From UHGV virus genome UHGV-0043902: 44,074 nt of DNA, one strand, 5' to 3'. Under the pieces are notes generated by a model. It did not search any database. It was not told the DNA's origin and saw nothing but the letters and a program-made list of their open reading frames with translations. The position numbers and the translations under genes were made by a program. Within the stretch, counting starts at the first letter, position 1. Each line of letters opens with the position of its first letter. Shown in pieces: positions 3,582-32,054 of the stretch. Source of the DNA: a virus.

Positions 3582-4204
3582 TTTTGAATCACCGTTGTTG
3601 CATAGGAATAAATAAAAGGGAGTTTTACATATTTCTGGTCAATGGCATCTTTCAGAAAATAGCCTATACCATCACCATATTCTGGTATCTGAATAGAAAA
3701 AACACTGTCCGATACAGTCACACTCACATCAAAAGTGTGCTGCAACGGCGGGTCTATCCCATTTTTTCCGTGAATAAACCGCGCCACACGTCGCTTTAAC
3801 CAGTCAATGCAGAAATGCGAACCGTCAGCCTTATAAAAATTCCACGTTAATATTCGTTTGAAATAATCATCAGGTACATACGATGCCTGCCCCGGAACGT
3901 AATTCCGCATTGCGGCATACGGGATCGTATTGTATTCAATGGTATCGTATGCGCCGCGTGCAATAGCCTCCTCGGAAACCTGTAGTAAAGGCCTTTCAAC
4001 GCCATAAATCCCGAGTGCAATCCAGTCCAGCAATTGCCCGGTTATTGATTCCGATGTCCAGCATGGCAATGCCAGATTGTTGAGTGAATCGAGGTATTCC
4101 TGAGCAATTTCATTGTATGCATCAAAGAACGCAACAACATTCGGATCATCTCTGTACTGCACAAATGGATAAGCAGGGAGAATTTTCTCAGTCAGATATT
4201 GCAT
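3578..4204 (-). CDS. Baseplate/tail protein (P2 gpI / Mu gp48 / e14 YmfQ-like position)
   Basis: ORF track 3578..4312; internal ATG at 4204 (MQYLTEKILPAYPF...) avoids overlap with the upstream J-like gene; position after the J-like gene. Confidence 0.5.
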   Translation of the reverse strand: MQYLTEKILPAYPFVQYRDDPNVVAFFDAYNEIAQEYLDSLNNLALPCWTSESITGQLLDWIALGIYGVERPLLQVSEEAIARGAYDTIEYNTIPYAAMRNYVPGQASYVPDDYFKRILTWNFYKADGSHFCIDWLKRRVARFIHGKNGIDPPLQHTFDVSVTVSDSVFSIQIPEYGDGIGYFLKDAIDQKYVKLPFIYSYATTVIQK

Positions 4205-5414
4205 ACTTGTTGACCTGAACCTGTGATGCCACCGTTGAAAAATAGGAATAGGTATCGCCATAAACCAGGCTTGTGTCTTTCGCCGGAAGAACAATATGGC
4301 CGTTAATACCAATGCTCACACTGATTGTTGAGATCAACGTCGCATCAACCAGCAACCTGACGGAACTGGTAAAAATATCCTGGATACGCAGAAGATTTAT
4401 CGGGTGTCCGACTTCAATTGAATTGATGTAATCAGCAACGTTTTGCTGCACAGCCATAGCAATACCCGCCGGATCAACATAATCATCAGACACCGTGTTC
4501 CAGGTGATTAGCACCATGACGTTTTGTGATGACGGGATAACGAACGGTACCTGATAAACGTCCGGCGAAACGGTTATTGAAACCGTGCGTTTTTCCACTG
4601 CCGCACCGGATGGATTGCTAACATCGTTGGTCAGTTTCGAAATGTCCGGTACAGATTTGTAAATCGCATAAGCCACATCATACGGATCACCGCCACCAAC
4701 AACCGCAACCCATTTCCCCAGCGACGACTGCCGGAAAGAAATCAGGTTTTCGCGCACACCGCTTACTGATTTGAGCATCGCTTTAAAGCAATCCGGTGTT
4801 CCCTGCACACCAAACATGCCGGACTCCATGACTTCGGCGCGGTAAGATGCCCACGTCTGCGCCTCCTGACCTGGCATCCCTGCGGTAAGGTTCGTGCATT
4901 TTACAGGCTGGTCTTTGGGTACTGATGTAATAACCTGCGTCACGGTCCCTTCCGGTACAGCCCATGAGCCTGACGTTGTGGCCACACAGTAAACTGGCTC
5001 AGTCTGCCCACTTTCCGGCACCACCGTATCGCGGGAAACTGCATACTGGTAGTTACCGTCTCCAACCACAAATCCTTTAGGGATACCAAATCCCGGCAAC
5101 GCCTCAAACACCACGTATACCGCCGTATTTGTACTTAATCCCTTCTGTGCTCCATAAATGTTTCCGAGTTGCATCAGTAACGGAATATTCGCGCCGTATG
5201 GGCTTACAGAGTTAATAAGGTCCACCCGCGCCTGGTCTATTAATGCCAGCGCCCCTACTGCCGTGCTGGCAAGGTCTGTAATAAGTCCTGCCGGAAGGTT
5301 GGCTGTATATCCAGGTACTTTTTCAGCAACTCTGGTGATAAGATTCGCGAGCAAATCATTGGGTGGCGTAGGCTGCGCACCCGCACTGGTCATAGTAATT
5401 GGTATTTCTGACAT
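4188..5414 (-). CDS. Baseplate J-like protein (P2 gpJ / Mu gp47 family)
   Basis: About 408 aa; ORF track 4188..5426 begins with TTG, ATG at 5414 preferred; size and position match baseplate J. Confidence 0.6.
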   Translation of the reverse strand: MSEIPITMTSAGAQPTPPNDLLANLITRVAEKVPGYTANLPAGLITDLASTAVGALALIDQARVDLINSVSPYGANIPLLMQLGNIYGAQKGLSTNTAVYVVFEALPGFGIPKGFVVGDGNYQYAVSRDTVVPESGQTEPVYCVATTSGSWAVPEGTVTQVITSVPKDQPVKCTNLTAGMPGQEAQTWASYRAEVMESGMFGVQGTPDCFKAMLKSVSGVRENLISFRQSSLGKWVAVVGGGDPYDVAYAIYKSVPDISKLTNDVSNPSGAAVEKRTVSITVSPDVYQVPFVIPSSQNVMVLITWNTVSDDYVDPAGIAMAVQQNVADYINSIEVGHPINLLRIQDIFTSSVRLLVDATLISTISVSIGINGHIVLPAKDTSLVYGDTYSYFSTVASQVQVNKYAISD

Positions 5415-5435
5415 AGTTAATCTCAAGGATAAGTT

Positions 5436-5975
5436 ATGAAGAAATTAATTTCATTGCTAATTGCATCCACTCTTTCATTTTCAGTATGCGCTCAAGAAGA
5501 AGACAATTATCATACCCGTCTAATAAGAGCTGCCTGCAACGATGCCATGCATAAATTACAGCTTCAATATGGTCGGCGTTTTATATGCCATACTGATAAT
5601 TTTACTGCCGGAAATATGAATGCCGCATACTTATCTGATTCTGTTTATGGGAAATCGGGAATAATGTTAATGAAATTCGGTAATGTTTATTATGATAATC
5701 CCAGCCATCCAACCCATGACACATTACATTATTCCTACAATATACAAGACATGAATACGGCCATTTCTTTAATTGTCAATGGGGGCGGTTTAAACGATCA
5801 GCAAATAAATTATCAAATTTGTAAAAAAGCCATTACAGATACCAAGGAGAAAATAAAGAAAAACAATAAAGATTATCTAGACAAAAAGATAGATCATAAA
5901 ACTTATGAGATAATGAATTCAGTTTTCAATGACTCGATAAAAAATTTTGAAAAATGTGTAGCTGAAAATAAGTAG
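5436..5975 (+). CDS. AT-rich moron encoding a secreted protein of unknown function (Sec signal peptide, Lys-rich C-terminus)
   Basis: 179 aa; N-terminus MKKLISLLIASTLSFSVCAQ-EE is a Sec signal peptide; SD aaggataagttATG; composition visibly AT-rich compared with flanking phage genes; opposite strand to the tail operon. Confidence 0.7.
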   Translation: MKKLISLLIASTLSFSVCAQEEDNYHTRLIRAACNDAMHKLQLQYGRRFICHTDNFTAGNMNAAYLSDSVYGKSGIMLMKFGNVYYDNPSHPTHDTLHYSYNIQDMNTAISLIVNGGGLNDQQINYQICKKAITDTKEKIKKNNKDYLDKKIDHKTYEIMNSVFNDSIKNFEKCVAENK

Positions 5976-6239
5976 TTGTTGGACTTTACAACCGCGCCCA
6001 ATTGAGTATGATTGGGCGAATGAGGCGTCGAAACCTCTTTCACGCGGCCTAGACCAACCCCGTCAGTGTTGGATTTTTTATGCCTACAATTCAGTGATGG
6101 CACAATGTGCGGTCACATCCCCGATCAATGTCGGGAGGGCGACGAATACAACACCCGAAAGGGAAATAAGTCCGCGGTTTCGTGAAGCCGTTTCGAACCT
6201 CCTGGCACCACAATTTCGAAAAAATTTCACGAGGTTTCT

Positions 6240-6797
6240 ATGACCAGCCAATTAATTCCCGTATTCAACGGCATTGTTTCAAACGAAACTACTCTTCTCT
6301 GCAACGCTCGCGATCTGCACACCTTTCTCGAAGTAGGTAAACGCTTTGCTACTTGGATCACCGAGCGAATCGGCGAGTATGAATTCATAGAAAATCAGGA
6401 CTACATAGCTATTTCCCAAAAACGGGAAATAGGTCACGGACGAGGGAAAAAGGACTACCACCTCACCCTAGACACTGCCAAAGAGCTGGCAATGGTCGAG
6501 CGCAACGAAAAAGGCCGCCAAATCCGCCGATACTTTATCGAATGCGAGAAGAAGCTGCGCGAAGATACCACCAGCACACAATCCCCTCTGAATGTTGACA
6601 TCATCATGCGCGTCAGAAACGGTTCTGTTACCCACATTGAGCACCACAAATCAGGCTCAGTTATAACCACAGAATGGGCAATTCACTTACTACGCAAAAG
6701 TGGATGGATTGTCATGCCACGCGATGAACTTCTTAACACGCCACTGGCCCAACTGATGCACGAAAACTTGCCTCAAACCGGAACCTGCGTCCGGTAA
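6240..6797 (+). CDS. Putative antirepressor-like protein (AntA/KilA-N-like N-terminal domain)
   Basis: 185 aa; N-terminus LIPVFNGIVSNETTLLCNARDLHTFLEV...WITERI..YEFIENQDY resembles phage antirepressor N-domains; SD gaggtttctATG; opposite strand within the tail region, analogous to P22 immI. Confidence 0.45.
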   Translation: MTSQLIPVFNGIVSNETTLLCNARDLHTFLEVGKRFATWITERIGEYEFIENQDYIAISQKREIGHGRGKKDYHLTLDTAKELAMVERNEKGRQIRRYFIECEKKLREDTTSTQSPLNVDIIMRVRNGSVTHIEHHKSGSVITTEWAIHLLRKSGWIVMPRDELLNTPLAQLMHENLPQTGTCVR

Positions 6798-7120
6798 CTG
6801 GTTCCGTTAAAAAACACAACATCGATGTTATAGGTGGGGTTTTCTGCCCCATCTACCTTTGAAATTGCCAGCGATGCAAAATACCCGGCAAACTGTTGCT
6901 GAACCATGTTCACATAGTAGTCCGGGTAAATTTGCTGCACGATGCACTGCTGCGCTGGAATACCGTAATTCGCGTAAAACGGCGACTCCCCCAACCCCAG
7001 CTTTAACGTCTGAATGAGCGTCGTCAGCCAGCCGTAGGAGAAATCACCGTTGGCGTCAGATTCTACTGCAACCCATTTTTTGTTGCCGTTCGCGTCGGTG
7101 ACGCGGCCCCATGTTCTCAT
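6773..7120 (-). CDS. Hypothetical protein, 115 aa; positional candidate for baseplate wedge (gpW/gp25-like) but no motif support
   Basis: ORF track; lies between the V-like and J-like genes; start codon 3 nt after the stop of a small upstream ORF. Confidence 0.35.
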   Translation of the reverse strand: MRTWGRVTDANGNKKWVAVESDANGDFSYGWLTTLIQTLKLGLGESPFYANYGIPAQQCIVQQIYPDYYVNMVQQQFAGYFASLAISKVDGAENPTYNIDVVFFNGTSYRTQVPV

Positions 7121-7123
7121 GCG

Positions 7124-7288
7124 TCAACCTTTCAAGTAAATTAGGGTACCGGTAACCAGAGCGGTACAAATGATCCACGCTACTGGAGTCAGAATATGCC
7201 GAATACCCCGACATACTGCGATTATTCTCGCAGCTTTATCTGCTCCTTGCGTTGTCGTTTCAGCCTTATGAATCAGTTCGCTATCCAT
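7124..7288 (-). CDS. Small membrane peptide (54 aa, C-terminal hydrophobic helix), function unknown
   Basis: Manual translation MDSELIHKAETTTQGADKAARIIAVCRGIRHILTPVAWIICTALVTGTLIYLKG; overlaps an upstream 30-46 aa hydrophobic peptide ORF (about 7290..7430) in an ATGGATAG coupling arrangement. Confidence 0.25.
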   Translation of the reverse strand: MDSELIHKAETTTQGADKAARIIAVCRGIRHILTPVAWIICTALVTGTLIYLKG

Positions 7289-7501
7289 TTAGAACCTTTA
7301 TGATCTCTGCGATTCCCGGTAGAGATTTAGCAACCGCAAACCCTCCGATAACTATAAGAACTGCATAAAACATTCTTCTCAGAACCGGACTTCTTTCGAG
7401 CAATTTTAGAGCTTCCACAATCCAGTCTCCTCCGCTAAAATTAATCACGGAAGACCTCCAAACATACGTAATTATCCCTTGCCTTATTCAAGGTCAGAAA
7501 C

Positions 7502-7541
7502 AAAAAACCCCGACTGGGCCAACAGTCGGGGTTTTCGTTTT
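7502..7541. terminator. Bidirectional intrinsic terminator
   Basis: aaaaaa-ccccgactg-ggccaa-cagtcgggg-ttttcgtttt: 9-bp GC-rich stem flanked by an A-run and a T-run. Confidence 0.75.
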
Positions 7542-7573
7542 ATGGGTAGTATTTAAAGTGAAATGAACCGGTA

Positions 7574-8287
7574 TTAACCCGGATTTGGTTTCTTCGACGT
7601 GATCGTACTGCCACCACTTTGAACACCAGTCACATCGTGACTGTGGCTGCTGGCGCTCACGCCGTTGATAACTGCATCTTTCTCGACCTTAAGAGGACCA
7701 ATCAGCGAAGCAGTTGTATCCTTCATCTGGGCTTTGTCCTGGACGATCTGTCCGTTGAGATGAATTATCCCGCTCAGGAAAATATCTTCGGCCTCAAGAT
7801 AAACAGCCTTCGACTTTTGCCTGATTTCTTCCGGAGCTACCGTTACCGAGCTACTACCGTCCTCTGTTTTGAGAATTGCACCGTCAGGGCCGTACAAAAC
7901 GATTTTTCGCGGATCTTCATCGGACCAGTCCTTGTTTGCCAGCGGTACGAAAAACAGGGGAGTGAGCGACATCGAGTAAGAAAGCGTCGCCATACCTGTT
8001 CCCAGCCCTGATATGCCGCGCAGGGATACATCAGCGGCAATTGTTACTCCTCGATCGCCCGGCTGTATCGGGTAACGAATATACGGGAATGTGGCGACAG
8101 GGATTGTTATCTGCGGAAAGTTGATCCCCTCTGGCAACATATCAAACTGAACGGTCACTATCTGCCCACTGACATCGACAACATGGCAGGGCAATTCACG
8201 GCCTTTAAGCTCGGCTTGCTGGTTGCCAGAACTGGTCATCATCTCCGACAGCGTTCGGAGAAACGGTAATTTTTGAGCGTTTGACAT
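7574..8287 (-). CDS. Baseplate assembly/spike protein (P2 gpV / Mu gp45-like)
   Basis: 237 aa; position and size; overlaps the upstream gene by 1 nt. Confidence 0.5.
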   Translation of the reverse strand: MSNAQKLPFLRTLSEMMTSSGNQQAELKGRELPCHVVDVSGQIVTVQFDMLPEGINFPQITIPVATFPYIRYPIQPGDRGVTIAADVSLRGISGLGTGMATLSYSMSLTPLFFVPLANKDWSDEDPRKIVLYGPDGAILKTEDGSSSVTVAPEEIRQKSKAVYLEAEDIFLSGIIHLNGQIVQDKAQMKDTTASLIGPLKVEKDAVINGVSASSHSHDVTGVQSGGSTITSKKPNPG

Positions 8288-10228: not shown

Positions 10229-12310
10229 TTACCCCGGAATTTGTTGCATCCCAGCCAGTTGAGCCGAAATATCCGAACCTGGTTTTTGAAGAACCTCAAG
10301 CTGAATAAGGGCTCTCCCGCCTGGATTGCTGGCAAGTACCTGCTGAGCATTTCGTAATTTACCTTCAAGCATCGGCCTCTGCTCTCTCATAGCTGGTATC
10401 TGTGCCATGAGCTTAAGGAGATAGTCCACTGTTTCACTTTTGAGCCTCAGGGTATTATCTTTCCCTACAGCAACATTGCCTCCATTATACTGGGCCAGAA
10501 CTTTTGCTATATCACCACCATAACGCTTCATGCTATCAGTAAGATATCTGGCAGCGGCATGCGTTGACTTAACTGGGTCAAAAACGTCATTTCCCTCTAA
10601 TCCATAAGCTTTTGCTGTTTCTGGAATAAATTGAAATAAACCTTTCGCACCAGCTTTGCTGATTGCATTTGGATTCCATCCTGATTCTTTTTCGGCAATT
10701 GCCGCCATCATATTCTCAGGTAATAATGATTCCCGGTTTATCTTTCTTACGTAATCCTGCAACCCGTTTACTGTCGCTACTCCCGGAATGTCCATAGCGA
10801 TTTCAGGCGTTCCCTGAACGGTATTTTTGCGCCCCAGATCGGTATCAATACCTATCCAGCGAAGCGCATCACCAACATTTCTCTTGGTGTAGTCCCATGA
10901 TGAATTTGCCGAAGCAATGATATTCTCGTGATCTTTATACGCATAAGCACCATAAGCCATTGCCGCAGAGATCAACGGATGCCTCATCATCGCAGTTACA
11001 ACCGCACTCGCCACTCCAGTGAAAGCCCCGCTTCCTCCGGCAATAACCGCTGCCCCAAAAAGCCAGGGATGCTCCGCCGCAAAACCAACAAATCCGCCAA
11101 GAGCCTTAGTGACCTTTGCAACATTTCCGGCAAAGTTATTCAGGTCGTTATTAAAATCCGGGCCATTAACGTACTTACCAAGTTTATCCAGCCCCGTTTC
11201 TACATCTGTCAGAATCCTTTTAAAGTTCTCACCGTTCATGAAATTCAGGGCAGCATTCGTGGTGCCATTAGAAATTCTGATTAAGGGATATGCATTCCCG
11301 GCCAGCGCCCCCTGAAATCCACTGGTAAGCCGATCCCAGTTATTTTCTAAGTTACTGGTAAGATTCTGATACTGACGTGTATGTCCAGATGTGAGCAACG
11401 AGTCATTCTGAGAAGCCCGCAATAAAAACTCTCTATTGAGTTCAGGTATTTTGTCCTGATATTTGACTAACTGGTTAGCAAAGCCAAAGTTAACCCAACC
11501 CAGCCCCCTCCCGTTTAACATCCCTTGAGTTAATCCTGTTCCCTCATACTCCTTTGCAAGAGCAGCAACTCTTTCTAACAACACAGGGAGATTTTCTGTT
11601 GCCCCTTTTTTAGGATTTATCCCTAACCCAATTAGCCCGTTGTAGGCAGGATGCTGAGTGTCATTCTGCGCGGCTGCCAGTGTATTGAGCAAATTACCAA
11701 CACCGGAAAAATAAGGCGAATAAGTGCTTTCTGCCGCCTTTAACTCTCCTGGCGTTGCCTGCAATTCATCAGCATTTTTCTGTTTCTCTACAACATTACG
11801 AGCCATCATGCCAAAGCCAAACGGCCCGGCAACGCCCATAACCGCAAGTTTTGTCCCCCACGATACGGTGGTTTTAAACAGGTTGTTTAATCTCGAAGTG
11901 GTCGTCCGTAGCGTAGAATTGATCTGCTTGTAAGTTTTCAGCGTCTGTTTGGCGTTTTTACCCAGACTACTGAGATACTTATCAAACATCGTTTCGCCGC
12001 GACCTTTATAGTTGCTCACCAGCGAATCAGGTGTTTTTCCGCTACCGACAAAGCGCCCTTTTTCATCCCTTAAACGTCCATCGGTGGGAGCAGGTGAAGA
12101 TGGTTTCCTGGGAGCCTGATTGGCTTCTCCGCCTGTGCTTGTCTGCCAGGAGCCACCTCCCGGACCTGTATTTGAAGGTATTTTAAGCGGCGTACCGGCA
12201 GGGCCAATCATCAGTCCGTTGCGATACTTTTCAAATATCGCCTCAAGCCGCCTGAGGTGTTCTTCATTAACATCCAGCGTCAGAACTGGCATCTGGTTAC
12301 CAGCCATCAC
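10229..12310 (-). CDS. Tail tape measure protein with C-terminal lytic transglycosylase (SLT) domain
   Basis: 693 aa; Gly/Ala-rich helical N-terminal part; C-terminal AIAEKESGWNPNAISKAGAKGLFQFIPETAKAYG matches the SLT catalytic-Glu motif (ES...GLMQ/FQ...T); follows the chaperone pair. Confidence 0.8.
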   Translation of the reverse strand: MMAGNQMPVLTLDVNEEHLRRLEAIFEKYRNGLMIGPAGTPLKIPSNTGPGGGSWQTSTGGEANQAPRKPSSPAPTDGRLRDEKGRFVGSGKTPDSLVSNYKGRGETMFDKYLSSLGKNAKQTLKTYKQINSTLRTTTSRLNNLFKTTVSWGTKLAVMGVAGPFGFGMMARNVVEKQKNADELQATPGELKAAESTYSPYFSGVGNLLNTLAAAQNDTQHPAYNGLIGLGINPKKGATENLPVLLERVAALAKEYEGTGLTQGMLNGRGLGWVNFGFANQLVKYQDKIPELNREFLLRASQNDSLLTSGHTRQYQNLTSNLENNWDRLTSGFQGALAGNAYPLIRISNGTTNAALNFMNGENFKRILTDVETGLDKLGKYVNGPDFNNDLNNFAGNVAKVTKALGGFVGFAAEHPWLFGAAVIAGGSGAFTGVASAVVTAMMRHPLISAAMAYGAYAYKDHENIIASANSSWDYTKRNVGDALRWIGIDTDLGRKNTVQGTPEIAMDIPGVATVNGLQDYVRKINRESLLPENMMAAIAEKESGWNPNAISKAGAKGLFQFIPETAKAYGLEGNDVFDPVKSTHAAARYLTDSMKRYGGDIAKVLAQYNGGNVAVGKDNTLRLKSETVDYLLKLMAQIPAMREQRPMLEGKLRNAQQVLASNPGGRALIQLEVLQKPGSDISAQLAGMQQIPG

Positions 12311-24716: not shown

Positions 24717-24968
24717 TTAGTCCTGATTTTTATCCACCCTGAGTAGTTCGCGCAGGGCAAAGGCATCCCCTTTTCTGGCAAGCTTAAACAATGCCGCCCG
24801 TAGCTCGGCTTCACCTTTCGCTCTGCCCTTACGGATGGACGCATAAAAATTTGTCATTGCTTCCCGATTTTCTTTCAGTCGGTTCAGATCAACATCCAGA
24901 ACGTCAGCGATTTGTTGTGCAGTCATCCGGCACGCTGCCAGAGACTCGACTTTCGAATACGGAATCAT
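24717..24968 (-). CDS. Small HTH-like protein, hypothetical
   Basis: 83 aa; SD gggggtgacaaATG; helix-rich with basic stretch. Confidence 0.4.
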   Translation of the reverse strand: MIPYSKVESLAACRMTAQQIADVLDVDLNRLKENREAMTNFYASIRKGRAKGEAELRAALFKLARKGDAFALRELLRVDKNQD

Positions 24969-25854
24969 TTGTCACCCCCATTGATATGCAGGGTGTCTTC
25001 TTCCTGTATTTTTCGTGAAGGATTTTTACTGCAGCGTTGTTCCAGGTGACCTGATGGTGAATGCGTTTATGGCTGGCACCCATCAGTGAAATTTTTACAC
25101 ACGACGGCGCATACATGACGGAGTAAAAACTTTTAACGTAGGTTCCGGAATCCAGATACAGCTCGGTCATTCCGCCGCTGTTTTTCTGCGTCTGTTTCTG
25201 CCCTAACTGGACAGCACCGATCGTCATAAACAATTCACCACGGCGACCGAGATTCGTGTACGTATTCACATCCTCGTTAATGCGCCCCATGAATGAGAAC
25301 GGTCGATCAACCGAACAGATAAAGCTGTTCATTGCCTTGCGTTTCACCCATGAAGCATGGCCGCCATTGTCACCAAGAAAATCCCCGCCCTGCGACATAG
25401 CGATGGAAAGAGCAGGTATTGATTCGTAATACGCCAGCATTTCAGAAAGGATCGCATCCAGTTTCCTTATCGGAAAATAGGCCTGGTCATAGTTGCGATC
25501 CACCCGAAACTGAAACTCGTGATAATCATCATCGAGCTGAATGAAGTATTTACACCCGACCTTTTTTGCCAGGTCGAAACAGGCATTACGGGCGTAAAAA
25601 ATTGAGCGACGATCACCGAAATTATCGGCTTCGTCAAAACGACTGGCGATTTCGGCTTTGGAAAACACCAGCACCTGTTCACCAAATTCTGCTATGTACT
25701 GATGCCGGGTTTTATCTTCATCATCAACGACGATAAAAATTTTCCCGGTATAGCCAGCACGACGCAAAGTCCGGTAAGTCAGAACTTTGTCCGGTCGCCC
25801 ATGAGTCAGAATAAAGGCGCAAAAATCATCACGCATATTCCTCCTCCCCGCCAT
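24904..25854 (-). CDS. Putative glycosyltransferase-like protein (GT-A-like N-terminus with DxD-type acidic motifs), soluble
   Basis: 316 aa; FILTHGRPD resembles the GT2 (I/V)PTYNRP motif; VVDDEDK and QLDDDYHEF acidic motifs; start overlaps the ParB-like gene by 26 nt. Confidence 0.4.
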   Translation of the reverse strand: MAGRRNMRDDFCAFILTHGRPDKVLTYRTLRRAGYTGKIFIVVDDEDKTRHQYIAEFGEQVLVFSKAEIASRFDEADNFGDRRSIFYARNACFDLAKKVGCKYFIQLDDDYHEFQFRVDRNYDQAYFPIRKLDAILSEMLAYYESIPALSIAMSQGGDFLGDNGGHASWVKRKAMNSFICSVDRPFSFMGRINEDVNTYTNLGRRGELFMTIGAVQLGQKQTQKNSGGMTELYLDSGTYVKSFYSVMYAPSCVKISLMGASHKRIHHQVTWNNAAVKILHEKYRKKTPCISMGVTNDSVFESRVSGSVPDDCTTNR

Positions 25855-26617
25855 GCATGATCTCCACCATGCACTGAGTCATCCGGACAAAACCATTTTC
25901 AATAGCCTGCTGATAATCAATGATCACCAGTGCCGACTCTTCGAAAAGCGCCTGAACTTCAGCGGGCGCATGAGCGTAATAGCCCGCAATTCTGCTGAAA
26001 TTAAATACTGTGTGGCGTTCTGCCGCACACAGGAGGAATTTTTCGATATCAGGATCAAGGGACGCCGAACGTATCCGGCTGACCAGCTCCTGAGTTTTCG
26101 TATCGTCGTACAGTTCGCCGATATCCGGTTTATCGCCCGACGGCTCATAAACAGGCGTATCAATTTTCGTCGTGTACGGCTCCTCCTCATTTCCTGTACC
26201 TGGCAAAACATCCGTCAACAGTTCATCAATTTCTGTCGGGCTGAATCCTGTCAGGGAGATATCAAAATCAGCATTGATTAGCTCCGACAGTTCCACCCGT
26301 AACAGTTCTTCATCCCAGCCAGCGTTGAGCGGCAGGCGATTATCTGCCAGGCGGTACGCCTTTTTTTGGTCATCCGTCAGACCAGACAGAACAATGACCG
26401 GAACCGAATCCATTTTGAGCACCTCAGCCGCCATCACGCGACCGTGACCAGCAATAATTTCGCCCTTTTCGTCAATCAGCACCGGATTGGTCCAGCCGAA
26501 TTGCTTAATGCTTTCTACCAGTTGTGCCACCTGCTCAGGGCTGTGTGTCCTGGCGTTGTGCGCATACGGAGACAGTTTTTGTAACGGGCGATAGACGATC
26601 TTCAATTTCTCGCTCAT
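25829..26617 (-). CDS. ParB N-terminal (ParB/Srx-fold) domain protein
   Basis: 262 aa; LIDEKGEIIAGHGRVMAA matches the ParB-box GxxR motif region; SD gaggctgtATG. Confidence 0.7.
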   Translation of the reverse strand: MSEKLKIVYRPLQKLSPYAHNARTHSPEQVAQLVESIKQFGWTNPVLIDEKGEIIAGHGRVMAAEVLKMDSVPVIVLSGLTDDQKKAYRLADNRLPLNAGWDEELLRVELSELINADFDISLTGFSPTEIDELLTDVLPGTGNEEEPYTTKIDTPVYEPSGDKPDIGELYDDTKTQELVSRIRSASLDPDIEKFLLCAAERHTVFNFSRIAGYYAHAPAEVQALFEESALVIIDYQQAIENGFVRMTQCMVEIMHGGEEEYA

Positions 26618-27212: not shown

Positions 27213-27395
27213 TCAGTTCTGCATACACTGCCGAACACCGTCGACAATTTCACAGACCTGAGAAGCTGTATCGAAAAGCTGGCGCGCCTTATTCAGGCTG
27301 ACGCATCCCACCAATAAAAAAGGCACCAGTATCGCTACCAGTGCCCATTTCGCTGCCGTTCGCGGCATTCTATGTGTCCAGTGTTTTCGACTCAT
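27213..27395 (-). CDS. Small lipoprotein (possible o-spanin-like lysis accessory; partner i-spanin not identified)
   Basis: ORF track 27213..27467; hydrophobic h-region plus lipobox LVGC in ..AAKWALVAILVPFLLVGC..; start slightly overlaps the endolysin 3' end. Confidence 0.45.
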   Translation of the reverse strand: MSRKHWTHRMPRTAAKWALVAILVPFLLVGCVSLNKARQLFDTASQVCEIVDGVRQCMQN

Positions 27396-29727: not shown

Positions 29728-30183
29728 TTATTGGCTTTCTCCGCATAACGCTAATTTCATTGGTATATACAGAATGTGTTCAGCAACACCCAACCATGCA
29801 TCAATGCGATTTCTGCAAGTTTTCAAGCTCCAGCCAGGGCGATACTTATTTAACTGTTGTGCCATTTTCAGCTTACTCATCCCCCGCCCTTCATATCTTT
29901 GTCGGAGGATAAAAATCAATCCAGGATGCTCTACCATCACTTCACTAATTACCCGGTCAATACATAACGCCTCGGCATCAGTGCAATGGGACAGCCAGCT
30001 TTTTTGCTTACTGTCGATCATCTCACGCAAAAATGCTTCCAGCTCTGGCTTCTCTATTCCCGCTTTTTTCATTCTGCGCAGAGCTTCATTGATGGCTGTT
30101 TTCGTCAATTTTTTGGATGCCAGCAACTGGTTGAACATATTCCCCGTCTTACCGCCACCAATATACGACCAGCGCCCCCACAT
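29728..30183 (-). CDS. Late antiterminator Q (82/21-type family)
   Basis: ORF track 29728..30390 (220 aa); likely start at internal Met (MWGRWSYIGG...) after the ybcO-like gene; position immediately upstream of tR', tRNAs and lysis genes. Confidence 0.55.
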   Translation of the reverse strand: MWGRWSYIGGGKTGNMFNQLLASKKLTKTAINEALRRMKKAGIEKPELEAFLREMIDSKQKSWLSHCTDAEALCIDRVISEVMVEHPGLIFILRQRYEGRGMSKLKMAQQLNKYRPGWSLKTCRNRIDAWLGVAEHILYIPMKLALCGESQ

Positions 30184-30266
30184 ACGCAGTTTTCCCTGAA
30201 TCCAGACACTTTCCAGCGTGGTGAGACGAAGGTGTTCTCCGCTTTTTCCTGTATTCGTTGGGTAAA

Positions 30267-30557
30267 TCACAAATATCCCTCCTTTCTCCAGATTTCTTGT
30301 GTGCGAAAAACACCTTCTGCATGCATCAGGCGTAATTCTTCTTTGGTGTAATCGCTGGTTTTTACCCGCCCGTCGATTAAATCGTGGCACGAGCTACAGG
30401 CAATCGCGGCCTGCATATCGTGTGGCTTTATCGCTGTTCCGCACGTTCCCGCCAGTCGGTAATGCGCCAGCACAGACGTTTCGGGATTGTGATTGCAGTA
30501 GCCAGGAATTCTGACCTGGCACATCTGGCCCCGCGCCGCTTTACGTAAATCCACCAT
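30267..30557 (-). CDS. ybcO: YbcO-like protein (DUF1364, Cys-rich putative nuclease of the lambdoid nin region)
   Basis: 96 aa; MVDLRKAARGQMCQVRIPGYCNHNPETSVLAHYR...ACSSCHD resembles DLP12 YbcO from memory. Confidence 0.6.
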   Translation of the reverse strand: MVDLRKAARGQMCQVRIPGYCNHNPETSVLAHYRLAGTCGTAIKPHDMQAAIACSSCHDLIDGRVKTSDYTKEELRLMHAEGVFRTQEIWRKEGYL

Positions 30558-31725: not shown

Positions 31726-31769
31726 CAGATGACGATCAGGGCGATTAACATCGCCTTTTGCTGCTTCAT
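31726..31769 (-). CDS. hokD: hok-family type I toxin gene, 5' fragment (HokD/RelF-like N-terminus), interrupted by the assembly gap
   Basis: Minus strand ATG at 31769 then MKQQKAMLIALIVI(C) exactly as the Hok/Gef N-terminal transmembrane start; ORFs reported across the gap are artefacts. Confidence 0.7.
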
Positions 31770-32054
31770 AGCCTGCTTCTCCTTGCCTTTCGGCACGTAA
31801 GAGGCTAACCTACATGTGTCTAGCATGAAATCGGCCTCAGATTAATGTTAAGCGTCTTGCAGGACGCGTAATGTTAACTGGGGCTTTTCTCTATCTGCCT
31901 TTTGGTGATCATGCCTGAGGCAGATAGCCTCAAGCACCCGCTGCAATTCTACTTAACTCTCCTTTTCCCGCAAACCGTTTTTATCCCCAGCGGCAAATCG
32001 AATACACCACCAGCGCCACCGCGATTCCTACCGTTGTGAATGCTTCAGGCCAGG

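What the first reader, a model, noticed from the sequence alone, without database searches (positions are those of the whole stretch)
7124..7541. Bidirectional terminator followed by two overlapping small membrane-peptide ORFs between baseplate genes
Immediately after the V-like gene there is a strong bidirectional terminator (7502..7541), then a possible weak promoter and two short hydrophobic ORFs: a 30-46 aa peptide at about 7290..7430 (..MFYAVLIVIGGFAVAKSLPGIAEIIKVLNG, SD GGAGGAG before an in-frame GTG) and a 54-aa peptide at 7124..7288, coupled to each other (ATGGATAG) and to the 115-aa ORF. Together with the opposite-strand genes at 5436..6797 this forms an island of about 2.1 kb that splits the baseplate cluster. 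Expression of the J-like and fibre genes would then depend on Q-mediated readthrough. Small membrane peptides here could be toxin-like or lysis/exclusion factors.
Basis: seen in the sequence. Interest (0 to 1): 0.5.

Follow-up and report, generated by a model that had tools for sequence, protein, structure and literature searches.

The report
Antisense-gated small membrane-protein cassette
Between two tail-baseplate genes of this E. coli prophage sits an inserted, never-annotated cassette (a two-way transcription stop signal, a structured leader and two tiny membrane-protein genes, apparently kept silent by an antisense RNA) that belongs to a widespread family found between late genes of many phages, including Shiga-toxin phages.

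Summary
A strong bidirectional hairpin terminator lies at 7503-7536. Two real, translationally coupled small membrane-protein genes follow on the minus strand: A (55 aa, GTG 7448..7281) and B (54 aa, 7288..7124).

They are not baseplate parts. In distant relatives the V-like and 115-aa genes abut. In the E. coli clade this gap holds 1-4 interchangeable small genes in about 13 architectures.

The same genes, behind the same hairpin and leader, also occur after the endolysin (H-19B, Stx phages, SPN3UB), between lambda-type M and L, and between terminase, portal and tail genes of diverse metagenomic phages.

No sense promoter fits between hairpin and start codon. Instead, the first ~12 codons carry a conserved -10/-35 on the opposite strand (35 of 39 non-redundant cassettes; synonymous shuffles give 15). 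That promoter points at the hairpin and predicts a ~95-nt antisense RNA covering A's ribosome-binding site and start codon.

Best reading: a mobile, late-only, antisense-gated small membrane-protein cassette, resembling a type I toxin or the P22 sar system. The proteins' function is unresolved. No Pfam, NCBIfam, PADLOC or Rfam family matches.

The sense promoter, A's start codon and the single-island idea were wrong.

The parts
7121..7573 (.). Inserted segment at the V/W junction (hot spot 1): the whole cassette
   Evidence: The V-like and 115-aa genes are 0-26 bp apart in 25 distant relatives. The gap is 244-1528 bp in 54 distinct versions in the E. coli clade. GC is 0.435 against 0.507 and 0.509 for the flanking genes. 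PGAP leaves it unannotated in E. coli M8.
7503..7536 (.). Hairpin 1: bidirectional intrinsic terminator (stem 7508-7516/7523-7531, loop 7517-7522, A- and T-tracts on both sides)
   Evidence: Covariation in 23 homologous leaders: 8 of 13 pairs change on both sides, 92.5% of cells are paired, and 0 of 500 shuffles reach this. The loop occurs in both orientations among relatives.
7477..7493 (-). Hairpin 2 of the leader (CCTTG 7493-7489 / CAAGG 7481-7477, 7-nt loop). In most family members its 3' arm overlaps the Shine-Dalgarno sequence.
   Evidence: A stem of at least 5 bp sits at the same place in 26 of 39 non-redundant cassettes, against 10.2 +/- 2.6 in shuffles. There are 22 distinct stem sequences, e.g. 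CCTAT/ATAGG, CGTTG/CAACG and CGTTA/TAACG.
7445..7465 (-). Six-codon leader mini-ORF ATG TTT GGA GGT CTT CCG TGA. It contains A's SD GGAGG (7459-7455), and its stop overlaps A's GTG (GTGA).
   Evidence: Read directly from the sequence. It is shared by the other E. coli A-type cassettes. Translation was not tested.
7281..7448 (-). ORF A, 55 aa, GTG start: MINFSGGDWIVEALKLLERSPVLRRMFYAVLIVIGGFAVAKSLPGIAEIIKVLNG. Amphipathic helix 8-19, then a membrane helix.
   Evidence: There are 88 homologues across Enterobacterales, all named 'hypothetical'. Relatives also occur in Aquitalea, Azoarcus and Vibrio. The frame is kept through 49-69 nt differences. AF2 pLDDT is 82.5. The most hydrophobic 19-aa window scores 1.91.
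7124..7288 (-). ORF B, 54 aa: MDSELIHKAETTTQGADKAARIIAVCRGIRHILTPVAWIICTALVTGTLIYLKG. It is coupled to A (ATGGATAG) and to the 115-aa gene (TGA CGC ATG). Its first 7 residues are recombinant.
   Evidence: There are 25 homologues in E. coli and Salmonella. Codon changes against STEC711 are 23 synonymous and 5 non-synonymous. AF2 predicts a single helix.
7414..7441 (+). Predicted antisense promoter inside codons 3-12 of A: -35 TCCACA 7414-7419, 16-nt spacer, -10 TAAAAT 7436-7441
   Evidence: Codons 3-12 show zero synonymous variation in 8 non-redundant A-type genes, then a sharp rise. C-type genes show codon heterozygosity 0.16 against 0.48, p=0.0009. An antisense TAnnnT lies at a fixed distance from the start codon in 35 of 39 cassettes, against 15.0 +/- 2.6 in synonymous shuffles.
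7448..7541 (+). Predicted cis-antisense RNA (~90-98 nt). It is complementary to A's start codon, SD, mini-ORF and leader, and ends at hairpin 1.
   Evidence: Inferred from the promoter plus the terminator. The fold shows a 5' single-stranded CCUCC region, a small hairpin and the terminator (-32.7 kcal/mol, z -3.9). No transcript data are available.
7574..8287 (-). V-like baseplate/spike gene (context, upstream neighbour)
   Evidence: PGAP calls it 'phage baseplate protein' and Rac-SA53 annotates bppV. Hits to GpV Apex and TIGR01644 are below threshold.
6773..7120 (-). Conserved 115-aa baseplate-module gene (W position; phrog_7986). It is not part of the insertion.
   Evidence: It is present in all 264 confirmed relatives, including those without any insertion.
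5427..6772 (.). Hot spot 2 (W/J junction), carrying opposite-strand cargo: a 179-aa secreted protein, an sRNA-Xcc1-like element and an AntA gene
   Evidence: The W-J distance is ~50-60 bp in 8 relatives. Cargo elsewhere is an LprI-family protein, a type I restriction endonuclease-like gene or IS2.

Best explanation
The 453 bp between the V-like gene and the 115-aa gene are an inserted accessory cassette. It belongs to a widespread, essentially unannotated family.

**Anatomy of the mobile unit**, in the direction of late transcription:
1. A bidirectional intrinsic terminator (hairpin 1).
2. A leader of about 35-45 nt with a second small hairpin whose 3' arm overlaps the Shine-Dalgarno sequence.
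3. A small gene, usually starting with GTG or TTG, for a single-pass membrane protein. It has a polar or amphipathic N-terminus, one membrane helix, and in many members a C-terminal IRWW-like tail.

This window carries two such genes, A and B, translationally coupled to each other and to the next baseplate gene.

**Expression (inferred).** The cassette has no sense promoter of its own. A and B can therefore only be made when Q-modified RNA polymerase from the late promoter reads through the hairpin.

**Antisense control (inferred).** The opposite strand of A's first ~12 codons carries a conserved sigma-70 promoter. Its transcript would start at about the complement of A's start codon. It would run through the SD and the leader and stop at the same hairpin, giving an antisense RNA of ~95 nt. 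That RNA would block A's translation, and through coupling B's, until late mRNA outnumbers it.

**Function (my best guess, the weakest step).** A and B are membrane-active proteins, like type I toxins or holins, made only late in infection. They would act on the cytoplasmic membrane, for example by tuning membrane energisation and so lysis timing.

**What is shown.** The anatomy, the insertion boundaries, the coding status, the mobility of the unit, the covariation of the hairpins and the nucleotide-level constraint on the 5' codons are all shown here.
For: **It is an insertion.** V and W abut in distant relatives. The gap is variable, with 54 distinct versions and about 13 architectures of A, A', A'', B, C, D and Rha-like genes.

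**The unit is mobile.** The same gene families sit behind a homologous hairpin and leader in other places:
- after the endolysin in Enterobacter and Providencia prophages, H-19B and SPN3UB;
- in an E. coli prophage with Stx-phage-type lysis genes, for B;
- between lambda-type M and L in Yersinia;
- after the tail fibres in Salmonella;
- between terminase, portal, tape-measure, lysozyme and tail genes of metagenomic phages, up to 3 per contig.

**The terminator.**

**No room for a sense promoter.** Only 35-45 nt separate the hairpin from the start codon, the sequence upstream of the hairpin differs between contexts, and the scan finds none on the gene strand.

**The antisense promoter.**
- The scan hit lies at 7414-7441 on the plus strand.
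- Synonymous sites are frozen in codons 2-13 only.
- TAnnnT is kept at a fixed position in 35 of 39 non-redundant cassettes although the encoded residues differ (DFS, KYT, NIN, KFS and others). Synonymous shuffles give a mean of 15 and a maximum of 24.
- The -35 score lies above all 500 shuffles, and TGn is present in 18 of 38.

**Weak start codons and hairpin 2.**

**Q system.** The window has a Q-like gene and tR'-like terminators.

**The ORFs code for protein.** They are helical, hydrophobic proteins.
Against: - No transcript, termination or protein data exist here. The antisense RNA is predicted from sequence only.
- The window's own antisense promoter is only a 9/12 match and lacks the TGn extension.
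- Frozen 5' codons could partly reflect constraints on translation initiation, mRNA structure or a recombination junction.
- The cassette lacks a toxin promoter, so it is not a canonical type I TA.
- Nothing shows that A or B is toxic or affects lysis. In this window the cassette is far from the lysis genes.
- Cassettes also sit between essential late genes in phages whose late transcription may not use antitermination. If so, hairpin 1 would have to be leaky in the sense direction. In most family members the sense U-tract is interrupted (UUUCUGUUUC).
Confidence: 0.55

Rival explanations
1. Classical lysogenic-conversion moron. A and B would be made in the lysogen from an unrecognised promoter and sit in the inner membrane to block DNA entry of superinfecting phages, as HK97 gp15, P22 SieA or T4 Imm do.
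For: - The genes are inserted and variable, and they diversify within a tail-gene cluster, as expected for arms-race genes.
- The neighbouring hot spot carries defence-like cargo: an LprI-family lysozyme inhibitor and a type I restriction endonuclease-like gene.
- The N-terminal parts vary on a conserved membrane anchor.
Against: - No sense promoter was found, and there is no room for one.
- The terminator lies upstream of the genes, not downstream.
- The weak start codon, the SD-overlapping hairpin and the antisense promoter all argue for silencing in the lysogen.
- There is no PADLOC hit.
Confidence: 0.2
2. There is no antisense RNA. The frozen nucleotides in the first ~12 codons would reflect translation-initiation or mRNA-structure constraints, or a shared recombination junction. 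The hairpin would be only a terminator and boundary of the late operon, and A/B would be ordinary low-level late proteins.
For: - 5' codons are commonly constrained.
- A-type genes are closely related in this segment, so common descent could explain the zero variation.
- The window's promoter match is modest.
- No Rfam family matches.
Against: - The -10-like hexamer is kept at the same distance from the start codon across subfamilies with different residues and different hexamers (TAAAAT, TATACT, TAATAT, TATAAT). It far exceeds the synonymous shuffles, and the sense strand shows it in only 8 of 39.
- C-type genes from different genera show two conserved blocks around a variable, spacer-like stretch.
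- The A-rich flank of the hairpin, which is the U-tract only in the antisense direction, is also conserved.
Confidence: 0.3
3. A and B are structural or assembly components of the baseplate, for example small adaptor proteins between the spike and the wedge.
For: They lie between baseplate genes, in the same orientation and translationally coupled to the next one.
Against: - They are absent from 25 relatives with the same baseplate genes.
- They are replaced by unrelated small genes in close relatives.
- They are found with lambda-type tails and in lysis and head-gene regions.
Confidence: 0.02
4. The ORFs are chance reading frames, and the region is purely regulatory RNA or DNA.
For: PGAP does not call them. 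They have no Pfam or PHROG match.
Against: - Codon changes show an excess of third-position and synonymous differences.
- Frames and the membrane segment are kept across genera, with a conserved C-terminal IRWW motif.
- Correctly spaced SD sequences and start/stop coupling are present.
Confidence: 0.03

Closest known systems
P22 immI 'ant moron': sar antisense RNA controlling ant inside the late operon (Liao/Wu/Susskind 1987; described in PMC2629481)
   Same: Both are inserts in a lambdoid late operon. In both, a small antisense RNA starts inside or next to the 5' end of the regulated gene and covers its ribosome-binding site. Both antisense RNAs have two stem-loops.
   Different: The regulated gene here is a 45-55-aa membrane protein, not an antirepressor. 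There are no Arc/Mnt repressors. The Rfam sar model scores only 20.8 bits against a gathering score of 43, and on the wrong strand. The comparison of sar architecture rests on my own knowledge plus PMC2629481 and was not tested here.
Type I toxin-antitoxin modules (hok/sok, ldr/rdl, ibs/sib)
   Same: Both encode a hydrophobic protein under 60 aa. Both have a cis-encoded antisense RNA over the translation start region, a structured leader and a weak translation start. The window itself carries a bona fide sok RNA elsewhere (31764-31939), so the contrast is direct.
   Different: No promoter for the 'toxin' was found here. Its mRNA is the phage late transcript. The membrane helix is C-terminal rather than N-terminal. 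Toxicity is untested. There is no Rfam or Pfam membership.
Lambdoid morons encoding small inner-membrane proteins (HK97 gp15; lambda lom/bor)
   Same: Both are extra genes inserted between conserved late or tail genes and absent from relatives.
   Different: Morons are defined by their own promoter in front and a terminator behind, which allows prophage expression. Here the terminator is in front and no sense promoter exists.
Accessory holin-like proteins such as P1 LydC/LydD (PMC9025707)
   Same: Both are small late membrane proteins additional to the main holin. The P1 proteins modulate lysis timing. Many cassette members sit directly after the endolysin gene.
   Different: LydC and LydD are 84-93 aa with two membrane helices. 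There is no sequence similarity. In this window the cassette is 20 kb from the lysis genes. Any lysis role is untested.
PHROG 6632 (unknown function)
   Same: It is the only catalogued family that contains a cassette member, the C-type gene (Rac-SA53 rac58), with E = 2e-28.
   Different: The window's A and B do not match it or any other PHROG. The A-to-C relationship is shown only by intermediate sequences and alignment.

Membership tests
Bidirectional intrinsic (Rho-independent) terminator | Stable GC-rich stem-loop | tested here: met
   The core is 9 bp, extended to 13-14 pairs. dG is -24.7 and -25.9 kcal/mol, z -5.5 and -5.1.
Bidirectional intrinsic (Rho-independent) terminator | U-tract directly 3' of the stem on both strands | tested here: met
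   The gene strand reads UUUUUUGUUUCU and the other strand UUUUCGUUUUAU.
Bidirectional intrinsic (Rho-independent) terminator | Structure maintained by selection | tested here: met
   8 of 13 pairs show compensatory changes, and 0 of 500 shuffles reach the observed values.
Bidirectional intrinsic (Rho-independent) terminator | Termination of transcription in vitro or in vivo | not testable with these tools
   This needs Term-seq or single-round transcription with and without Q.
Moron (Juhala/Hendrix sense) | Extra DNA absent from related phages at the same junction | tested here: met
Moron (Juhala/Hendrix sense) | Own promoter upstream and terminator downstream, allowing expression from the prophage | tested here: not met
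   There is no gene-strand promoter, the terminator lies upstream, and only 35-45 nt separate it from the start codon.
Moron (Juhala/Hendrix sense) | Base composition differs from the neighbours | tested here: met
   GC is 0.435 against 0.507 and 0.509.
Type I toxin-antitoxin | Small (<60 aa) hydrophobic membrane protein | tested here: met
   A is 55 aa and B is 54 aa, each with one hydrophobic helix.
Type I toxin-antitoxin | Antisense RNA overlapping the toxin mRNA's translation start region | tested here: inconclusive
   A conserved antisense promoter plus a terminator predict it. No transcript evidence is available.
Type I toxin-antitoxin | Independent promoter for the toxin mRNA | tested here: not met
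Type I toxin-antitoxin | Toxicity on overexpression, neutralised by the RNA | not testable with these tools
   This needs an experiment.
Holin / antiholin / lysis accessory protein | Gene located in the lysis cassette | tested here: not met
   In this window the cassette is at 7.1-7.6 kb and the lysis genes at 27.2-28.5 kb. Homologues in other phages do sit after the endolysin.
Holin / antiholin / lysis accessory protein | Effect on lysis timing or membrane permeabilisation | not testable with these tools
   This needs an experiment.
Structural baseplate component (gpW/gp25-like) | Conserved presence and position in phages sharing the baseplate module | tested here: not met
   A and B are absent from 25 relatives and are variable in the others.
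Known anti-phage defence proteins (PADLOC-DB) | Profile match | tested here: not met
   There were 0 hits for A, B, C and D at E<=1.
Gifsy-1 isrK-orf45-anrP | sRNA gene upstream of a small ORF whose amino-acid sequence is not conserved, coupled to an antirepressor | tested here: not met
   A, B and C are conserved at protein level. There is no isrK or C4 Rfam hit at this place. The system is described in PMC4825925.

The most novel reading that the evidence does not exclude
The cassette would represent a previously unrecognised, widespread class of phage elements. Each is a small tail-anchored membrane protein gene, headed by a bidirectional terminator and silenced by a cis-antisense RNA that uses the same hairpin as its terminator. 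The elements would spread by recombination and punctuate the late operons of temperate phages of Proteobacteria, sometimes several per operon, including the R-Rz gap of H-19B and Stx-converting phages. Such an element would resemble a type I TA module but have no toxin promoter, so that the late-operon transcript itself serves as the 'toxin' mRNA.
Probability: 0.5. Interest if true: 0.8.

Novelty: new variant of a known kind. Interest (0 to 1): 0.65.

Why it matters
- **Hidden genes.** The element is invisible to current annotation. PGAP leaves the gap empty, and most phage records list 'none' under the gene. Yet it is conserved from E. coli and Salmonella to Aquitalea, Azoarcus and Pseudomonas phages, and it sits in medically relevant Stx phages next to the lysis genes.
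- **A new regulatory design.** If the antisense layer is real, one hairpin would serve as terminator for both the late operon and a silencing RNA. This would show how phages keep membrane-active proteins strictly late.
- **Testable candidates.** It offers a set of small proteins to test for roles in lysis timing, exclusion or toxicity.
- **Practical markers.** The V/W and W/J junctions of this prophage family are cargo hot spots worth mining.

Tried and rejected
- **Curated libraries.** Pfam, PHROGs, NCBIfam and PADLOC gave nothing for A and B. Only the C-type gene hits phrog_6632, which has unknown function.
- **Rfam.** Gathering and permissive searches found no family at the hairpin or leader, only sub-threshold terminator-like hits to sar, AgrB, rimP and others.
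- **Gifsy-1 IsrK-orf45-anrP.** I considered it because C is 45 aa and some gaps add a Rha/Ant-like gene. I rejected it because that orf45 is conserved only at nucleotide level and has an upstream sRNA.
- **Pas sRNAs of pathogenic E. coli.** They are Q- and holin-proximal and unrelated.
- **P1 LydC/LydD.** They are an analogy only.
- **Literature.** Searches for Rac-SA53 and for combinations of antisense, moron and small membrane protein found no description of this element.
- **Locus search with the mixed A/C alignment.** It failed because the alignment has no conserved stretch. I split it into A2 and A3 instead.
- **Plasmids.** Only 10 records matched, so the element is not plasmid-borne.
- **Exhaustive profile search of 1.84 billion representatives.** It found only 49 clusters. 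The family is rarely called as a gene, so protein databases understate it.
- **AlphaFold models.** They are simple helices and add nothing on function, so I ran no fold search.
- **Sense-strand promoter.** I looked for one by eye and by scan. No conserved candidate was found.
Full report
**1. Where we are**

The window is a lambdoid prophage of E. coli. The region around the finding is 100% identical to E. coli M8, and the closest sequenced phage is Rac-SA53. All late genes run on the minus strand, in this order:
- a Q-like gene (DUF1133/Phage_antitermQ, 29728..30390);
- two tR'-like terminators and two tRNAs;
- holin and M15 endolysin;
- head genes;
- a sheath-sized gene;
- a tape-measure protein with an SLT domain (12310..10229);
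- three baseplate genes;
- the V-like gene (8287..7574);
- the interval in question;
- a conserved 115-aa gene (7120..6773, phrog_7986);
- two plus-strand genes;
- the J-like gene (5426..4188) and the fibre genes.

NCBI's pipeline annotates nothing between the V-like and 115-aa genes.

**2. The observation**

*The hairpin.* It is real and exceptional. A 9-bp GC core extends to 13-14 pairs through flanking A- and T-tracts. Folding gives dG -24.7 kcal/mol on the gene strand and -25.9 on the other strand, z about -5. It is the best terminator-like site on both strands in 10 kb.

*ORF A.* It starts at GTG 7448 and encodes 55 aa. An SD GGAGG lies 6 nt upstream. A six-codon mini-ORF ends in GTGA, overlapping A's start.

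*Coupling.* The ATGGATAG overlap is correct, and so is the TGA-CGC-ATG junction to the 115-aa gene.

*Coding.* Both ORFs code for protein.
- B differs from the STEC711 copy at 34 nt, 25 of them in third positions, giving 23 synonymous and 5 non-synonymous codon changes.
- A keeps its frame and its hydrophobic segment through 49-69 nt differences.
- A has 88 database relatives and B has 25, all named 'hypothetical'.
- AlphaFold predicts an amphipathic helix plus a long helix for A, and one long helix for B.

**3. It is an insertion, and there are two hot spots, not one island**

I fetched 80 loci through the 115-aa protein.
- In the 25 most distant ones (115-aa protein 77-84% identical), the V-like and 115-aa genes are 0-26 bp apart. 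In eight of them the J-like gene follows within about 50-60 bp.
- In the E. coli clade the V/W gap is 244-1528 bp, in 54 distinct versions. It contains one to four small membrane-protein genes, sometimes with a Rha/Ant-like gene. The small genes are A, two A variants, B, C (Rac-SA53 rac58, phrog_6632) and D.
- The W/J gap varies independently. It carries Ant plus a secreted protein here, and an LprI-family protein, a type I restriction endonuclease-like gene or IS2 elsewhere.

The 115-aa gene between the two gaps is part of the conserved module.

**4. The hairpin travels with the gene**

A and C are one family, because intermediates join them. Outside this prophage type the same genes sit:
- directly after the endolysin in Enterobacter and Providencia prophages, in H-19B (S-R-[hairpin + 45-aa gene]-Rz) and in SPN3UB; tblastn also finds the gene, mostly unannotated, in many Stx1a-, Stx2a- and Stx2c-converting phages, whose flanking genes I did not inspect;
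- between lambda-type M and L in Yersinia;
- in a tail-tip island of Pseudomonas phage YMC11/02/R656.

B occurs after the endolysin of an E. coli prophage with Stx-phage-type lysis genes, and after the tail fibres of a Salmonella prophage.

In nearly every case the gene is preceded by a homologous hairpin and a leader: AAGCGAAAGCCCCGA..CGGGGCTTTCT..CCTTG-N7-CAAGG-GAGAA-N3-6-GTG.

*Covariation.*
- Hairpin 1: in 23 leaders, 8 of 13 pairs change on both sides, and 0 of 500 shuffles reach this. Its loop is found in both orientations.
- Hairpin 2: its 3' arm overlaps the SD. It is kept in 26 of 39 non-redundant cassettes with 22 different stem sequences, against 10.2 +/- 2.6 in shuffles.

*Wider distribution.* A scan of IMG/VR with a generic form of hairpin 1 showed that 29 of 126 occurrences are followed by a small membrane-protein gene of the same superfamily. 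These genes are very divergent, and many end in AIRWW. They lie between terminase, portal, protease, tape-measure, lysozyme and tail genes, with up to three per 7.5-kb contig. By their tails and motifs, D and probably B belong to this superfamily (my reading of the sequences).

**5. No sense promoter, but a conserved antisense one**

Only 35-45 nt separate hairpin 1 from the start codon. Sequence upstream of the hairpin is unrelated between contexts. The scan finds no gene-strand promoter. The start codon is GTG or TTG in most cassettes.

The only promoter-like site in the interval is on the plus strand, inside codons 3-12 of A: TCCACA-16-TAAAAT at 7414-7441.

Comparative tests support it.
- In 14 non-redundant C-type genes, codon heterozygosity is 0.16 for codons 2-13 and 0.48 for codons 14-45 (p=0.0009). 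Arg12 is CGA in 14 of 14, while Arg43 uses five codons. Two conserved blocks flank a variable stretch, like a -35, a spacer and a -10.
- In 8 non-redundant A-type genes, codons 3-12 show no synonymous change at all. Variation starts abruptly at codon 13.
- Across 39 non-redundant cassettes of all subfamilies, an antisense TAnnnT sits at sense positions 5-11 in 35 of them, and at position 8 in 27. The encoded residues differ (DFS, KYT, NIN, KFS, NYK and others). Synonymous shuffles give 15.0 +/- 2.6 with a maximum of 24. The sense strand shows the motif in 8 of 39.
- The -35 score at the proper spacing exceeds all 500 shuffles, and TGn precedes the -10 in 18 of 38.

The predicted transcript would start at about 7448 and end at the hairpin (about 7535-7541). 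It would be complementary to A's start codon, SD, mini-ORF and leader. It folds into a 5' single-stranded CCUCC stretch, a small hairpin and the terminator. The A-rich flank of hairpin 1, which is a U-tract only in this direction, is conserved as well.

**6. How it most likely works**

*Shown:* an inserted, mobile, terminator-headed cassette with two coding small membrane-protein genes. Both hairpins, and the 5' codons on the antisense strand, are under structural and sequence constraint.

*Inferred:*
- A and B are transcribed only by read-through from the late promoter. The Q-like gene and the tR'-like terminators fit this.
- Translation is damped by the weak start codon and by hairpin 2.
- An antisense RNA made from the opposite strand silences what leaks through, until late mRNA is in excess.

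*Guessed:* the proteins act on the cytoplasmic membrane late in infection. That is a toxin-like or holin-like action, possibly tuning lysis timing. The frequent position next to the endolysin and the GxxxG-like motif in C-type helices point that way, but weakly.

Superinfection exclusion is the main functional rival. It fits the diversification, but not the lack of a promoter or the several silencing layers. A structural role is excluded by the comparative data.

In this window the hairpin would also stop plus-strand transcripts that leave the Ant gene. That gene overlaps the 115-aa gene tail to tail and has no strong terminator before 7504. This is a secondary, inferred role.

**7. Comparison with what is known**

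By architecture the nearest systems are the P22 sar/ant control inside the late-operon 'ant moron' (PMC2629481) and type I toxin-antitoxin pairs. By position the nearest are lambdoid morons. By possible role the nearest are accessory holin-like proteins such as P1 LydC/LydD (PMC9025707).

The cassette fails defining features of each.
- It has no own promoter and a terminator in front, so it is not a moron.
- It has no toxin promoter, so it is not a canonical type I TA.
- It has no similarity to sar or to holin families.

No curated protein, defence or RNA family covers A, B or the leader. The literature searches found no description. In an exhaustive library the family has only 49 representative clusters, because it is hardly ever called as a gene.

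**8. Verdict**

The finding is real and more interesting than first described. I file it as a new variant of a known kind: antisense-controlled small membrane protein genes, or morons. The caveat is that the antisense RNA and any function are predictions awaiting transcript mapping and genetics.

Noticed in passing
window 6130-6214 (+): An Rfam sRNA-Xcc1 (RF02221) match scores 69.7 bits, above the gathering score of 53. It lies immediately upstream of the AntA-like gene (6240..6797). An RNA element in front of an antirepressor recalls the IsrK/anrP and c4/ant arrangements.
   Followed up: no
window 31764-31939 (-): A canonical sok antitoxin RNA (RF01794, 120.9 bits) is present, so a hok/sok type I TA lies in the early region of the same prophage.
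   Followed up: no
window 5427-6772, and loci L003, L004, L006: The junction between the 115-aa gene and the J-like gene is a second cargo hot spot. It carries Ant plus a secreted protein here. In other E. coli prophages it carries an LprI-family lysozyme-inhibitor-like protein, a type I restriction endonuclease-like gene or IS2.
   Followed up: partly
window 5436-5975 (+): A 179-aa protein with a signal peptide (MKKLISLLIASTLSFSVCAQ) has very low GC (0.32) and no family match. Only weak hits appeared (WBM0748 T4SS-associated, E 0.001).
   Followed up: no
hairpin 7508-7531, and loci L018, L033, L041, L048, L052, L054, L060: The 6-nt loop of the terminator occurs in both orientations among close relatives (TTGGCC here, GGCCAA or GGCAAA elsewhere). 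It looks as if the palindrome's centre flips.
   Followed up: partly
window 27213-27395 (-): Directly after the endolysin lies a small lipoprotein-like ORF: MSRKHWTHRMPRTAAKWALVAILVPFLLVGC.., with lipobox LVGC. It could be an o-spanin or an unusual spanin. The Providencia relative L090 has a hairpin plus two small membrane genes inserted between the endolysin and this ORF.
   Followed up: no
window 24904-26617 (-): A ParB_N-domain gene and a TET-associated glycosyltransferase (TAGT) gene lie between the lysis and terminase genes. This suggests DNA hypermodification functions in the late operon.
   Followed up: no
L188, L164, L174, L238 (IMG/VR metagenomic contigs): Several cassettes occur per contig, each with its own hairpin, leader and small membrane gene. 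They are wedged between terminase, portal and protease genes, with three in the 7.5 kb of L188.
   Followed up: partly
loci L163-L255 (many marine contigs): The same generic hairpin, with loops such as TCTCTTTTGAGG, precedes a conserved ~220-aa protein (MAIPKLNP..YTYKKLGGDVLDIEL) in many environmental phage contigs. This use of the hairpin is unrelated to the small-protein cassettes.
   Followed up: no
PP818812.1 (hit H1): 'Actinobacillus phage vB_Apl-pPE4' is about 96% identical in DNA to this E. coli prophage region. That is odd for the stated host.
   Followed up: no
L097 4200-4290 (E. coli prophage with Stx-phage-type lysis genes): Between the B-type gene and the Rz start lies a further in-frame hydrophobic stretch (MSTEFIRAMAFAIRIVAIAVLVGQAVGGD). 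It runs directly into the Rz reading frame. It could be an N-terminal extension of Rz or another small gene.
   Followed up: no
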